Shown here: piece after piece, positions 3,970 to 6,182 of the stretch
Layout: every line of letters begins with the position of its first letter
Position numbering within the stretch: position 1 is the first letter of the stretch
Source: a virus
Taxonomy: Duplodnaviria > Heunggongvirae > Uroviricota > Caudoviricetes
DNA length: 6,182 bases
Virus record (IMG/VR): IMGVR_UViG_2657245634_000002
Direction: 5' to 3' (one strand)
Notes under the pieces: model-generated
Told to the model about the DNA's origin: nothing
What the model saw: the letters and a program-made list of their open reading frames with translations, nothing else
The model's database searches: none
Made by a program: the position numbers and the translations under genes

Positions 3970-4465
3970 ACGCTGCCTTGTCGGGGCCGTGCTGGCTATT
4001 GCTGCCACGCTGCCGGGTTTTCAGCAGCTTCACACCTCCGTGGAAGGGCTGAAACTGATTGCCGATTACGAAGGTTGTCGTCTGCAGCCGTATCAGTGCA
4101 GCGCGGGTGTCTGGACCGACGGCATTGGTAATACGTCGGGCGTCATTCCCGGCAAAACCATTACGGAGCGACAGGCAGCAGAAGGGCTGATCTCCAACGT
4201 GCTGCGTGTGGAGCGGGCGCTGGAAAGGTGTGTGAAGCAACAGCCGCCGCAGAAGGTGTATGACGCTGCGGTGTCGTTTGCCTTCAACGTGGGTACGGGC
4301 AATGCCTGCAGTTCCACGCTGGTGAAATTGCTCAATCAGCGGCGCTGGGCGGATGCGTGCCGACAGTTGCCGCGCTGGGTTTATGTGAAAGGTGTTTTTA
4401 ATCAGGGGCTGGATAACCGCCGTGCGCGGGAGATGGCCTGGTGCCTTAAAGGAGCTGGACTATGA
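3950..4465 (+). CDS. K: SAR endolysin, T4-lysozyme-like muramidase (GH24)
   Basis: 171 aa. N-terminal weakly hydrophobic Gly/Ala-rich segment KRCLVGAVLAIAATLPGF typical of a signal-anchor-release domain. Catalytic-triad-like spacing E-x8-C-x5-T in YEGCRLQPYQCSAGVWTDGIGNT. Downstream FAFNVGTGN...STL...LNQ...ACRQL.RWVY block resembles P21 R / RrrD-type lysozymes. Strong GGGAGGA RBS 4 nt before the ATG. Start lies inside the 3' end of the holin gene. Confidence 0.9.
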   Translation: MNPSIVKRCLVGAVLAIAATLPGFQQLHTSVEGLKLIADYEGCRLQPYQCSAGVWTDGIGNTSGVIPGKTITERQAAEGLISNVLRVERALERCVKQQPPQKVYDAAVSFAFNVGTGNACSSTLVKLLNQRRWADACRQLPRWVYVKGVFNQGLDNRRAREMAWCLKGAGL

Positions 4466-4890
4466 CGCGTGCGCTGGCAGTAGTGGTGGCGCTGGCACTC
4501 GTTGCGCTGGGCTGGCAGTCGTGGCGGCTTAACAGCGCCAGCCACACCATCGAAACGCAGCGCGCGGCGCTGAAAAGTAAAGCGCAGGAACTGACGAAGA
4601 AAAACAGCCAGCTGATCGGTCTGTCCATTCTGGCTGAAACCAACAACCGGGAGCAGGCGCGGCTCTACGCCGAAGCTGAACAAACCAGCGCACTGCTGAG
4701 ACAACGACAACACCGGATTGAGGAACTGAAACGTGAGAACGAGGATTTACGCCGCTGGGCTGATACTCCTTTGCCTGCTGACATTATCCGGCTGCGAAAA
4801 CGTCCGGTATTCACCGGAGGTGCAGCTTACCGTCAGTGGTTGTCCGCGAGTGACGCCGTGTCGGCTGGATCAGGCCGCGCCGCGCACTAA
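4462..4890 (+). CDS. lysB: i-spanin (Rz-like, P2 LysB family)
   Basis: 142 aa. N-terminal TMD ALAVVVALALVALGW, then a long charged predicted coiled-coil region (ETQRAALKSKAQELTKKNSQ...IEELKRENEDLRRW). ATG overlaps the endolysin stop (ATGA) with GGAG upstream. An out-of-frame lipoprotein gene is embedded at its 3' end. Confidence 0.85.
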   Translation: MTRALAVVVALALVALGWQSWRLNSASHTIETQRAALKSKAQELTKKNSQLIGLSILAETNNREQARLYAEAEQTSALLRQRQHRIEELKRENEDLRRWADTPLPADIIRLRKRPVFTGGAAYRQWLSASDAVSAGSGRAAH

Positions 4891-5023
4891 CGGTGATCTG
4901 AACGCATTGCTGGATGAAACGGAGGCCGCCTGGGCGGTCTGTGCAGACAAAGTGGACATGATTATTGCGTGTCAGGAGCGAAACAGTGAACAAACCACAA
5001 TCCCTGCGCCACGCCCTCAATAA
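4733..5023 (+). CDS. lysC: o-spanin, outer-membrane lipoprotein (Rz1-like, P2 LysC family)
   Basis: GTG start within lysB in another frame. Signal peptide with lipobox LTLSGC, a Pro- and Cys-containing mature region, short overall length. It overlaps the lysB 3' end and extends past it (overlapped rather than fully embedded spanin architecture). Confidence 0.8.
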   Translation: MRTRIYAAGLILLCLLTLSGCENVRYSPEVQLTVSGCPRVTPCRLDQAAPRTNGDLNALLDETEAAWAVCADKVDMIIACQERNSEQTTIPAPRPQ

Positions 5024-5417
5024 AGCAGTGCCTTATGTCCGTAATAACCCGGACAAACTGCATCTGTTTGTAGATAATGGTTCGCTGGTTGCCACCGGGG
5101 CCAGCTCCATGTCATGGGAGTATCGTTACACCCTGAACGTGGTGATAGAGGATTTCAGCGGCGACCAGAATCTGCTGATGGCCCCGGTTTTGCTGTGGCT
5201 GCGTGATAACCAACCTGATGCCATCAATAATCCGGCATTACGGGAAAAGCTATTCACCTTTGAGGTGGATATTCTGCGCAACGATGTCTGTGATATCAGC
5301 CTTAACCTGCAGCTGACAGAGCGTGTGGTGGTCAACACTGACGGCAGTGTGTCGAGCGTTGAAGCTATAGCGGAACCCGATGAACCTGAAGAAATGTGGA
5401 CGGTGAAACGTGGCTGA
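4986..5417 (+). CDS. R: Tail completion protein R (P2 gpR family)
   Basis: Protein ...KPQSLRHALNKAV...NPDKLHLFVDNGSL...RYTLNVVIEDFSGD..LLMAPVLLWLRDNQPD...ISLNLQLTER resembles P2 gpR. Preferred start is GTG at 4986 with AGGAG at 4974-4978. The ORF track's TTG at 4965 is an in-frame alternative. Overlaps the lysC 3' end. Confidence 0.85.
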   Translation: MNKPQSLRHALNKAVPYVRNNPDKLHLFVDNGSLVATGASSMSWEYRYTLNVVIEDFSGDQNLLMAPVLLWLRDNQPDAINNPALREKLFTFEVDILRNDVCDISLNLQLTERVVVNTDGSVSSVEAIAEPDEPEEMWTVKRG

Positions 5418-5859
5418 ATTGCAGAAGGTGGACGACTGGCTGAGTGCCTTGCTGGCGAATCTGGAGCCTGCCGCAAGAAGCCGCATGATGCGCCAGCTGG
5501 CGCAGGAACTGCGCCGGACACAGCAGCAGAATATCAGGATGCAGCGCAATCCAGATGGCAGCAGTTATGAGCCGCGACGGGCAACAGCACGCAGTAAAAA
5601 AGGCCGCATCAAACGCCAGATGTTTGCAAAGCTGCGCACCACAAAATACCTGAAAACTGCCGCCAGCGCCGATTCTGCCAGCGTGCAGTTTGCTGGCAAG
5701 GTGCAGCGTATTGCCCGTGTTCATCACTACGGCCTGCGAGAACGTATTCAACGAATTAATATGTCTATTAAGTATCCATGTAGAAAGTTGTTGGGAGTTA
5801 ATGAACAATTAATCATTGACTTAGAAAAATTATTAGTAGAGTATTTCGCTCAAAATTAG
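5410..5859 (+). CDS. S: Tail completion protein S (P2 gpS family); 3' end compositionally atypical
   Basis: 149-aa ORF whose GTG start overlaps the R stop by 8 nt, the same R/S overlap arrangement as in P2. Basic central region and VHHYGLRER motif fit gpS. The last ~35 codons (from about 5745) are AT-rich, unlike the rest of the gene. Confidence 0.85.
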   Translation: MAELQKVDDWLSALLANLEPAARSRMMRQLAQELRRTQQQNIRMQRNPDGSSYEPRRATARSKKGRIKRQMFAKLRTTKYLKTAASADSASVQFAGKVQRIARVHHYGLRERIQRINMSIKYPCRKLLGVNEQLIIDLEKLLVEYFAQN

Positions 5860-6182
5860 TACATCTGTGTGACAATATGCAACAGTTTATTCAGATTTTA
5901 CAAACTATTTCCACATGGCCGTTTGCTTTCATCTTTGGTCTATGTATTTTATATCGTCCTATAAATATGTTGTTTAGTAGATTTATTGAAAGTAATACGG
6001 CAAAAGCTAAATTAGGATTTGTGGAGCTAGAGATTGGAGAGCTAGCTAAAAAAGGAAGAGAGGCTGTTGATAATTTTAATGAGTTAACCATTGTTATGGC
6101 TAAGACTCGGTTGTTGGAGTTAGAGGTTACTAAAGAGAACTTTTCTGCAGCGTTTTCATCTAATCAGCAAGTTAAATTAAAT
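5745..6182. other. Abrupt low-GC segment: start of a horizontally acquired cargo (moron) region at the S-V variable locus
   Basis: By eye, base composition changes from well over 50% G+C across 1-5740 to roughly one third G+C from about 5745 to the window end. The boundary falls inside the 3' end of gene S, not in an intergenic gap. Confidence 0.6.
5877..6182 (+). CDS. Hypothetical membrane-anchored protein, first gene of low-GC cargo; 3' end outside window
   Basis: ATG at 5877 opens a frame that stays open for 102 codons to the window edge despite AT-rich sequence, where chance stops are frequent. Translation MQQFIQILQTISTWPFAFIFGLCILYRPINMLFSRFIESNTAKAKLGFVELEIGELAKKGREAVDNFNELTIVMAKTRLLELEVTKENFSAAFSSNQQVKLN has one N-terminal hydrophobic helix followed by a charged, helix-prone region. 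No family recognised. No clear Shine-Dalgarno; the start is 17 nt after the S stop. Confidence 0.5.
   Translation, partial: MQQFIQILQTISTWPFAFIFGLCILYRPINMLFSRFIESNTAKAKLGFVELEIGELAKKGREAVDNFNELTIVMAKTRLLELEVTKENFSAAFSSNQQVKLN

What the first reader, a model, noticed from the sequence alone, without database searches (positions are those of the whole stretch)
5740..5859. Mosaic junction inside gene S: the last ~35 codons are recoded in low-GC sequence
Gene S keeps an intact reading frame of the expected length (149 aa against about 150 in P2), but its 3' end (roughly ...RERIQRINMSIKYPCRKLLGVNEQLIIDLEKLLVEYFAQN) is encoded in AT-rich codons unlike the rest of the gene. This implies the recombination that delivered the downstream cargo had its crossover inside S. 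The cargo travels with a compatible S 3' end, a signature of homologous-flank exchange of morons between P2-like phages of hosts with different GC content.
Basis: seen in the sequence. Interest (0 to 1): 0.6.

Follow-up and report, generated by a model that had tools for sequence, protein, structure and literature searches.

The report
Cargo cassette carries its own S-gene tail
In this P2-like E. coli prophage, the last 40 codons of the essential tail gene S belong to an AT-rich accessory-gene cassette inserted between genes S and V; this is one example of a general pattern at a known variable site, and there is no sign that it came from a low-GC host.

Summary
Gene S (5410-5859, 149 aa) is intact. 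Its GC falls from 0.58 (GC3 0.65) in codons 1-110 to 0.275 (GC3 0.25) in codons 111-150. The best-fit change point is 5745, and about 1,000 E. coli prophages lose DNA similarity at 5738-5747. The tail is a genuine but diverged gpS C-terminus (13/39 residues identical to the ordinary tail), not a synonymous recoding. It is under purifying selection (dN/dS 0.17).

The AT-rich block runs from S codon 111 to the base before the V start codon. It holds a 127-aa ORF, a PcfJ-domain gene and its own Ogr-type V promoter.

The pattern is general. Among 83 loci, 75 of them with 96-99% identical S N-termini, I found 22 cargo types (all 30-37% GC) and 26 tail types, paired almost one to one (ARI 0.95). Recent spread moves the whole of S plus the cargo, with crossovers in the flanking genes.

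The low-GC-host idea is not supported. Every relative lies in Enterobacterales phages with 55-64% GC backbones. Cargo GC3 is 0.22-0.33 in six genera. Four collection scans found no AT-rich donor.

The S-V (orf30) site is a known variable locus. I did not find the boundary inside S described. Interest is moderate.

The parts
4986..5417 (+). Gene R (tail completion protein). This is conserved left flank in which recent crossovers occur.
   Evidence: Pfam P2_Phage_GpR at 160 bits; RefSeq annotation of the identical locus; L005 is 96.8% identical here and 100% from S onward.
5410..5739 (+). Gene S codons 1-110: backbone-type sequence (GC 0.58, GC3 0.65), shared at 90-97% nucleotide identity among prophages that carry different cargos.
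5738..5748 (.). Mosaic junction: the point where similarity to other S alleles ends and the GC change point falls (maximum-likelihood position 5745).
   Evidence: the junction is at S nt ~318-339, depending on which allele is used as reference.
5740..5859 (+). Gene S codons 111-149 plus the stop codon: a cassette-linked, AT-rich allele of the gpS C-terminus (tail type T1). Residues 132-147 are predicted to form a helix.
   Evidence: Homology tests, PHROG 26 to aa 147, dN/dS 0.17, helix at pLDDT ~84, co-occurrence with the cargo.
5816..5842 (+). Promoter-like element inside the S tail, TTGACT-N15-TAGAGT. It is invariant or nearly so at nucleotide level in four diverged T1-family tails. This is a candidate only.
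   Evidence: alignment. Not reported by the consensus scan, which requires a 16-18 nt spacer.
5860..5876 (.). 17-nt spacer between the S stop codon and the cargo start codon.
5877..6182 (+). 5' part of the first cargo gene (orf127, a 127-aa hypothetical protein), which runs off the end of the window. In the complete locus a 404-aa PcfJ-domain gene follows, then a cassette-specific V promoter, then V.

Best explanation
Window 5740-5859 is the left end of an accessory-gene cassette that occupies the known variable site between the late genes S and V (the orf30 site) of a P2-like prophage. The cassette-specific DNA is about 1.8 kb at about 33% GC. It starts inside S at codon ~111 and ends at the base before the V start codon, which P2's record marks as the V-operon transcription start. 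It therefore contains three things: its own allele of the gpS C-terminus, the cargo (orf127 plus a PcfJ-domain gene), and its own copy of the Ogr-activated V promoter.

Both embedded backbone functions keep their function but not their sequence. The tail keeps the LLG motif, the amphipathic helix pattern and the protein length, and it is under purifying selection. The promoter keeps only a TGT-N12-ACA box centred near -55.

Cassettes move between phage backbones by homologous recombination in the conserved flanks (R and S 5' on the left, V to J on the right). The S tail and the V promoter lie between those flanks and the non-homologous cargo, so they are almost never separated from the cargo and have diverged with it. 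The junction inside S is the inner limit up to which crossovers can still occur.

Shown here: the boundaries, the homology and constraint of the tail, the tail-cargo pairing, the variable recent breakpoints, and the uniformly low GC across hosts. Inferred: that the divergence reflects long-term linkage of old cassette alleles, and that the AT-richness is a maintained property of cassette-linked DNA rather than a trace of a foreign host.
For: Left boundary and GC shift.

Right boundary: similarity to other prophages resumes at the V ATG. Among 23 cassette types the mean pairwise nucleotide identity is 0.90-0.97 over S nt 1-330, then 0.70, 0.64 and 0.43 over nt 331-450. It is 0.32-0.34 over the 90 nt before V and 0.93 from V +1.

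V promoter: a TGT-N12-ACA box lies 45-48 nt before the V ATG in 26 of the 27 cassette-tail representatives printed. P2's record places the activator site and the transcription start there.

Tail homology and constraint.

Tail-cargo pairing: 22 cargo clusters against 26 tail clusters, ARI 0.95, reached by 0 of 2,000 permutations. 36 empty sites share one GC-rich tail. The top 120 gpS cluster representatives hold 81 distinct tails.

The same tail family accompanies diverged orf127-PcfJ cargo (61-77% aa identity) in other genera, including on a very different S N-terminus in Atlantibacter.

Flank exchange: a block of at least 99.5% identity (whole S, cargo and pre-V) sits in backbones that are 84-93% identical elsewhere, with breakpoints in R, between L and X, at the start of V, or after J.

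Stable AT-richness: cargo GC3 is 0.22-0.33 in six genera while the flanks are 0.56-0.72, and dS between the E. coli and C. amalonaticus cassettes is 1.4-2.0.
Against: The linkage is not absolute. The C1 cargo family occurs with five tail types, including an ordinary GC-rich tail plus a 212-nt spacer in C. koseri, and cargo C14 sits behind an unmodified empty-site tail.

The 83 loci are not phylogenetically independent, and 75 of them (the IMG/VR set) were chosen for high S N-terminal identity, so the permutation result overstates independence.

Passive linkage does not by itself explain why the tail is as AT-rich as the cargo, since it belongs to the same highly expressed gene as the GC-rich part of S.

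Outgroup-polarised substitution counts do not show a clean equilibrium: AT>GC changes outnumber GC>AT in the cargo. In the tail, the E. coli branch drifted towards AT (5 to 0) and the C. amalonaticus branch towards GC (6 to 1), on very small numbers.

The invariant TTGACT...TAGA(G/A)T block hints that selection on the DNA itself also acts in this cassette.
Confidence: 0.75

Rival explanations
1. One reading: the cargo and S tail were recently imported by recombination with a P2-like phage of a low-GC host, and the AT-richness is the donor genome's signature.
For: The tail and cargo have GC3 of 0.25-0.30, far below the backbone. The wider PcfJ family is found on plasmids of low-GC Firmicutes such as Listeria, but only at about 25% identity.
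Against: All cargo homologues at 48-77% identity are in Enterobacterales. In every locus examined the backbone is 55-64% GC. Cargo GC3 is equally low in six genera despite saturated synonymous divergence. All 22 unrelated cassettes at this site are 30-37% GC, which would require a low-GC donor for every one of them. No T1-type tail was found on an AT-rich S gene in 50,697 phage records, 185,579 species genomes, IMG/VR or JGI metagenomes. The pattern scans need near-exact 8-10-residue matches, so remote donors could be missed.
Confidence: 0.08
2. The AT-rich tail is shaped, at least in part, by a second function of the DNA. Because orf127 starts only 17 nt after the S stop codon, its lysogenic promoter, or a silencing or regulatory site, would have to lie inside the S tail. 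On this reading the cassette 'owns' the tail because the tail codes for two things at once.
For: ATTGACTTAG is invariant, and TAGA(G/A)T follows at a fixed 15-nt distance, in four tails whose cargo is only 63-82% identical in DNA. This includes a GC-ending Asp codon in a 25% GC3 context. Synonymous divergence in the tail (pS 0.50) is somewhat lower than in S 5' or the cargo (0.64-0.70). Where S keeps an ordinary tail (C. koseri), a 212-nt AT-rich spacer precedes the cargo.
Against: The consensus scan finds no sigma-70-type site in the tail, and the candidate has a suboptimal 15-nt spacer. 19 of 22 cargo types lie on the opposite strand, converging on S, and still replace 46-136 nt of S, so an embedded cargo promoter cannot be the general cause. 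The synonymous-site difference rests on about 24 sites.
Confidence: 0.25
3. Non-homologous capture: the insertion destroyed the true S C-terminus, and the reading frame now runs into foreign DNA that happens to supply a tolerated ending (a fusion or truncation).
For: The local-alignment shuffle test on the last 20 residues alone is not significant. A few gpS variants elsewhere are read-through fusions at this point.
Against: The 40-residue tail aligns end to end without gaps to ordinary and P2 tails (z 11.3 and 6.8). The last 18 residues fit the family pattern in fixed register (p 0.0008). PHROG 26 aligns to aa 147. The length is conserved at 149 aa. dN/dS is 0.17. The exact protein is listed in 1,212 blocks of the public collection.
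Confidence: 0.02
4. Functional coupling: the gpS C-terminal helix and the cargo co-evolve. For example, the cargo might recognise the gpS tails of competing P2-like phages, with the resident tail acting as the matching 'self' variant.
For: Tail diversity is extreme (81 tails in 120 representatives) and pairs almost one to one with cargo on otherwise near-identical S genes.
Against: Cargos are unrelated to each other, yet all show the same effect. The non-coding V promoter on the other side is equally cassette-specific, which passive linkage explains more simply. The same cargo family works with five tail types. Within a cassette lineage the tail is under purifying, not diversifying, selection.
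Confidence: 0.04

Closest known systems
The orf30 site between S and V of phage P2, one of the three classical variable regions of P2-like phages (TO region, Z/fun region, orf30)
   Same: The position is the same: after the last gene of the O operon and before the Ogr-dependent V promoter. The content is non-essential, foreign-looking and differs between relatives (P2 record; PMC3091744; PMC6823313).
   Different: The sources I read describe this site at the level of whole genes. Here the variable block starts about 120 nt inside S and includes the whole V promoter. This cargo (orf127 plus PcfJ) is on the same strand as S, whereas P2 orf30 and 19 of 22 cargo types are on the opposite strand.
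Defence hotspots of P2-like phages and P4 satellites (Rousset et al. 2022, PMC9122126; 2026 preprint 10.64898/2026.02.27.708500)
   Same: Unrelated AT-rich cassettes are swapped rapidly between near-identical backbones. The preprint also lists a hotspot within the late genes.
   Different: Those studies report almost no linkage between defence genes and whole core genes and leave the recombination process open. Here a short part of one core gene, the last 15-44 codons of S, is tightly linked to the cargo. This cargo matches no known defence model (PADLOC).
Morons and mosaic junctions of lambdoid and other tailed phages (Hendrix, Juhala and colleagues; recalled from my own knowledge)
   Same: Extra genes of deviant base composition sit between conserved genes, and sharp similarity boundaries mark past recombination.
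   Different: A moron is defined as a self-contained unit between two genes, with its own promoter and terminator. Here neither was detected by the consensus scan, and the unit overlaps an essential coding region and supplies the neighbouring operon's promoter.
Hitch-hiking of flanking sequence with old polymorphic gene clusters, such as gnd next to the E. coli O-antigen locus (recalled from my own knowledge)
   Same: Divergence peaks next to a non-homologous polymorphic block and decays with distance as crossovers in the flanks erode it. Compare the identity gradient of 0.90, 0.70, 0.64, 0.43.
   Different: The scale here is tens of bases inside one small phage gene. The linked segment is also compositionally shifted, which simple hitch-hiking does not predict.

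Membership tests
gpS / Phage_tail_S (PF05069; PHROG 26, tail completion or Neck1 protein) | Significant match to the family profile | tested here: met
   Pfam 128.4 bits against a cut-off of 24.3, aa 3-133. PHROG 26 E 3e-46, aa 1-147.
gpS / Phage_tail_S (PF05069; PHROG 26, tail completion or Neck1 protein) | Position after R and before V in a P2-type late gene order, with a length of about 150 aa | tested here: met
   Gene order O N M L X Y K lysB R S, then cargo, then V. Length 149 aa against 150 aa in P2.
gpS / Phage_tail_S (PF05069; PHROG 26, tail completion or Neck1 protein) | C-terminal 40 residues homologous to the family's C-terminus | tested here: met
   Ungapped Smith-Waterman z 11.3 and 6.8; register-anchored test p 0.0008. 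One local test on the last 20 aa alone was not significant.
Cassette of the P2 S-V (orf30) variable site | Lies between S and V and differs between otherwise closely related phages | tested here: met
   22 cargo clusters plus an empty state among loci with 96-99% identical S N-termini.
Cassette of the P2 S-V (orf30) variable site | Ogr-type late promoter for V retained downstream of the cargo | tested here: met
   TGT-N12-ACA box ending 46 nt before the V ATG in this cassette and in nearly all others. Its position matches the P2 annotation. Promoter activity was not tested.
Cassette of the P2 S-V (orf30) variable site | Cargo dispensable for phage growth | not testable with these tools
   Indirect only: 36 of 83 loci have an empty site.
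Moron (self-contained transcription unit) | Own promoter and terminator flanking the extra gene(s) | tested here: inconclusive
   No sigma-70-type site upstream of orf127 and no terminator on the + strand in the consensus scan. A conserved TTGACT-N15-TAGAGT candidate lies inside S.
Moron (self-contained transcription unit) | Inserted between two genes without altering them | tested here: not met
   The cassette-specific DNA replaces S codons 111-149 and the whole V promoter.
Known anti-phage defence system | Match to a described defence protein model | tested here: not met
   PADLOC gives no hit for orf127 and only a 12-bit chance-level hit for the PcfJ protein. Pfam PcfJ domain at 45 bits against a cut-off of 25, function unknown.
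Recent horizontal import from a low-GC host | Closely related sequence resident in a low-GC genome or phage | tested here: not met
   relatives occur only in Enterobacterales phages with high-GC backbones.

The most novel reading that the evidence does not exclude
The last 15-44 codons of gpS may be more than a passive passenger. They could form a hypervariable identity module that co-evolves with the adjacent cargo. One version: a self/non-self tag that the linked exclusion genes use to spare the resident phage while targeting competing P2-like phages. Another version: a dual-coding segment that carries the cargo's regulatory signals. Alternatively, the uniform ~33% GC of tail, cargo and promoter could mark DNA that has escaped the recombination-associated GC maintenance acting on the phage backbone. 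That would make this site a natural experiment on why accessory DNA is AT-rich.
Probability: 0.07. Interest if true: 0.8.

Novelty: new member of a known kind. Interest (0 to 1): 0.42.

Why it matters
P2-like prophages are major carriers of anti-phage and other accessory genes in enterobacteria. A 2026 survey states that the recombination process swapping these genes is still unexplained.

This locus gives a concrete anatomy for one hotspot. The exchangeable unit is bounded by the last conserved stretch of S and by the first transcribed base of V. It carries its own versions of an essential protein's C-terminus and of a late promoter, and it moves by crossovers anywhere in the conserved flanks.

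There are two practical consequences. Hotspot miners that delimit cargo by whole 'core genes' will miss that the S tail is a marker of cassette identity. And gpS tolerates dozens of different C-terminal helices, which is useful for engineering and for reading tail-assembly structures.

The result also cautions against reading low GC as evidence of a low-GC donor.

Tried and rejected
1. A protein search with the 40-aa tail alone found nothing because the query is too short for the word index. It cost one of three searches.

2. The genome-collection scan with the tail alignment gave one hit, L103. It is a chance 'IDLEKLLLEY' match inside an 851-aa enzyme of a 67% GC MAG.

3. The local hmmsearch shuffle test on the last 20 residues was not significant. 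I replaced it with a register-anchored test.

4. The embedded-promoter idea fails as a general cause, because most cargos are on the opposite strand. I kept it as a lead for this cassette only.

5. Nested mosaicism within the tail (T1 against T10 and T12): only 61-62% nucleotide identity over nt 316-387, so there is no recent shared sub-block.

6. Outgroup-polarised substitution counts, meant to test compositional equilibrium, were inconclusive. The data are saturated and the tail numbers are tiny.

7. My dN/dS for the Atlantibacter tail was mis-registered by one codon and should be ignored.

8. The AlphaFold model of gpS was too poor (pLDDT 61, pTM 0.29) to justify a fold search. Only the C-terminal helix is confident. 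There is no solved structure detectable by sequence.

9. Distant blastn of the whole AT-rich block and tblastn of the PcfJ protein against the phage collection found no match.

Full report
**What the window is.** The 6,182 bases are the late region of a P2-like (Peduoviridae) prophage of E. coli. The genes run O, N, M, L, X, holin, lysozyme, lysB/lysC, R (4986-5417) and S (5410-5859), followed by the start of a further ORF at 5877. The window is 100% identical over the region compared (5300-6182) to six complete E. coli genomes. It is probably IMG/VR contig UViG_2690316066_000001. In E. coli WAT (locus L001, where window coordinate = L001 coordinate minus 3701), S is followed by a 127-aa hypothetical gene, a 404-aa PcfJ-domain gene, and then V, W, J, I, H.

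**Checking the observation.** S is intact at 149 codons. Codons 1-110 have GC 0.582 and GC3 0.645, like the rest of the operon (GC3 0.54-0.75). Codons 111-150 have GC 0.275 and GC3 0.25. A two-segment likelihood scan puts the change point at 5745 (log-likelihood ratio 30.6). No 120-nt window upstream falls below 0.408 GC. As an independent check, about 1,000 E. coli genomes match the S 5' part at 93-96% identity, and every match ends at window 5738-5747. The alignment shows the collapse at S nt ~330.

**Is the tail still gpS?** Yes.
- Pfam Phage_tail_S aligns to residue 133 and PHROG 26 to residue 147.
- The 40-residue tail aligns end to end without gaps to the ordinary E. coli tail (Smith-Waterman 60; shuffles 18.2 ± 3.7; z 11.3) and to the P2 tail (z 6.8).
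- The last 18 residues, scored in fixed register from the conserved LLG against 24 other tail types, give z 3.3 and p 0.0008. This is within the range of the other tails (z 1.65-6.6).
- A local-alignment shuffle test on the last 20 residues alone was not significant. I attribute this to low power for a short amphipathic helix.
- Residues 132-147 are predicted as a helix at pLDDT ~84 in an otherwise poor model.
- Against the C. amalonaticus version, the tail has 12 synonymous and 12 non-synonymous differences, giving dN/dS 0.17. It is therefore read and constrained in the S frame.
- It is not a recoding. Only 13 of 39 residues match the ordinary tail, and GC1 and GC2 are also shifted.

**Extent of the foreign block.** GC stays at 0.26-0.38 from L001 9441 to 11224 and returns to above 0.5 in V. 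Similarity to prophages with other cargos resumes exactly at the V ATG. P2's own record marks that position as the V-operon transcription start. The record places the activator (Ogr) site just upstream, an O-operon terminator and the non-essential orf30 after S.

**The pattern is general.** I collected 80 IMG/VR loci whose S residues 1-110 are 96-99% identical to the window's. Adding the loci from other genera gave 83 loci with both S and V.
- 36 loci have an empty site, with 68 nt between the S stop and the V ATG, and share one GC-rich tail (...LLGVNDDVEAMTRDMILQWLAG/E).
- The rest fall into 22 cargo clusters of 631-2,229 nt, all at 30-37% GC, and 26 tail clusters.
- Tail and cargo pair almost one to one (adjusted Rand index 0.95; reached by 0 of 2,000 permutations).
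- The point where each tail departs from the empty-site allele ranges from S nt 318 to 405. The window's type is at the upstream extreme.

Between cassette types, mean pairwise nucleotide identity is as follows:

| Region | Identity |
|---|---|
| S nt 1-330 | 0.90-0.97 |
| S nt 331-360 | 0.70 |
| S nt 361-390 | 0.64 |
| S nt 391-450 | 0.43 |
| 90 nt before V | 0.32-0.34 |
| V from +1 | 0.93 |

The only conserved feature before V is a TGT-N12-ACA box ending 45-48 nt upstream of the ATG, which puts its centre near -55. So each cassette carries its own allele of the gpS C-terminus and its own V promoter. The top 120 gpS cluster representatives in the large protein collection hold 81 different tails.

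**This cassette in other hosts.** PcfJ homologues at 48-77% identity occur only in Enterobacterales.

| Host (locus) | S tail and context |
|---|---|
| C. amalonaticus (L015) | T1-family tail (...IKYP.R.LLG.N.QL.IDLEK.LVEYF...) |
| Atlantibacter (L016, L108) | T1-family tail on a very different S N-terminus |
| Leclercia (L014) | T1-family tail in a decayed R/S pseudogene |
| C. koseri (L017) | Ordinary GC-rich tail followed by a 212-nt spacer |
| K. aerogenes (L018) | A different tail |
| Kosakonia (L019) | A different tail again |
| Pectobacterium (L020), Enterobacter (L021) | Cargo with no S upstream |

The linkage is strong but not obligatory.

**How it moves.** The exact chimeric gpS is listed in 1,212 blocks of the public collection, and it was followed by orf127-PcfJ in all 10 places examined. 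I compared ten such loci with the window's locus. A block of at least 99.5% identity, containing the whole of S, the cargo and the pre-V region, lies in backbones that are only 84-93% identical elsewhere. Its breakpoints are inside R (L005), between L and X (L007-L009, L012), at the start of V (L007-L010), or after J (L005). This is direct evidence for exchange by homologous recombination in the flanks. It also shows that recent crossovers were not at the junction inside S. That junction is the inner limit of cassette-specific sequence.

**Where the AT-richness comes from.** I found no support for this.
- Every locus with this cargo or tail has a 55-64% GC backbone.
- Cargo GC3 is 0.22-0.33 in six genera while flanking S and V are 0.56-0.72. 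This holds even though dS between the E. coli and C. amalonaticus cassettes is 1.4-2.0.
- All 22 unrelated cassettes share the same low GC.
- The AT-rich block and the PcfJ protein have no match in 50,697 phage records.
- The tail alone gives only weak, in-register hits to other gpS C-termini.
- Scans of species-representative genomes, IMG/VR and JGI metagenomes with the tail alignment returned only the E. coli and Atlantibacter types plus one chance hit.
- The wider PcfJ family does occur on Listeria plasmids, but at about 25% identity.

I conclude that low GC is a stable property of cassette-linked DNA at this site and not a recent donor signature. Why it is maintained is not resolved. The polarised substitution counts were inconclusive.

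**A possible second function of this tail.** orf127 starts 17 nt after the S stop codon, so any promoter active in the lysogen must lie inside S. The consensus scan finds none. However, ATTGACTTAG is invariant, and TAGA(G/A)T follows exactly 15 nt later, in four tails whose cargo DNA is only 63-82% identical. This is a lead for this cassette only. It cannot explain the general pattern, because 19 of 22 cargo types lie on the opposite strand and still replace 46-136 nt of S.

**Comparison with what is known.** The S-V (orf30) site is one of three classical variable regions of P2-like phages (PMC3091744; PMC6823313; P2 record). A 2026 preprint notes a defence hotspot within the late genes, reports little linkage between defence genes and whole core genes, and says the recombination process remains to be elucidated (10.64898/2026.02.27.708500). 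Rousset et al. 2022 treat the gpA-portal hotspot. In the papers I could read, nobody describes the variable block reaching into S or including the V promoter, but I could not read Nilsson et al. 2004. The cargo matches no known defence model, and its function is unknown.

**Verdict.** The feature is a new, well-delimited member of a known kind: a hotspot cassette exchanged through homologous flanks. It comes with a generalisation that may be new, namely that each cassette brings its own gpS C-terminus and its own V promoter. Interest is moderate.

Noticed in passing
L001 1-1160 (E. coli WAT, upstream of the window's prophage portal gene): A phosphoribosyltransferase gene and a DprA-like gene lie next to the portal gene. 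This looks like the DprA-PRTase type cargo described for the gpA-portal hotspot, so the same prophage carries cargo at two hotspots.
   Followed up: no
window 4462-4468 (lysozyme/lysB junction); compare L002 2789-3166: The window has no LysA gene between the lysozyme and lysB genes. Many relatives (L002, L003, L005, L016-L018) have a 125-142-aa LysA/DNZ54_00345 gene there, so this is a second presence/absence polymorphism in the late operon.
   Followed up: no
L007, L008, L012, L013 (E. coli-type loci), L014 (Leclercia), L021 (Enterobacter): Decayed prophages that have lost V-H, or almost everything, still keep an intact orf127-PcfJ pair. This suggests the cargo is retained for the host's benefit.
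   Followed up: partly
L020 3340-5203 (Pectobacterium): An orf128-PcfJ pair lies outside any P2 context, just downstream of what reads like the 3' end of a tyrosine recombinase gene. The cargo therefore also occurs in other mobile contexts.
   Followed up: no
L001 9936-9961 (beyond the window's end): orf127 and the PcfJ gene overlap by 26 nt in all loci, which suggests they are translated as a coupled pair.
   Followed up: no
L001 11151-11224 and the 75 nt before V in L022-L101: The V promoter region is cassette-specific and unalignable between cassettes, apart from a TGT-N12-ACA box at a fixed distance. Similarity resumes exactly at the V ATG, which P2's record marks as the transcription start.
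   Followed up: yes
window 5816-5842: TTGACT-N15-TAGAGT lies inside the S tail. The TTGACT block is invariant at nucleotide level in four diverged relatives, making it a possible embedded promoter for orf127.
   Followed up: partly
P0059 (199 aa), P0063 (209 aa), and one IMG/VR locus among L022-L101: Some gpS variants run on as long read-through or frameshift products starting at the junction region. These are probably S genes damaged by cassette turnover.
   Followed up: no
L001 15193-16970 (outside the window): A recombinase gene lies next to oppositely oriented tail-fibre and fibre-assembly genes. This looks like an invertible host-range segment in the same prophage.
   Followed up: no
window 4775-5023: A lysC (Rz1-like) gene is embedded out of frame across the lysB end and the region before R, as annotated in the identical RefSeq locus.
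   Followed up: no
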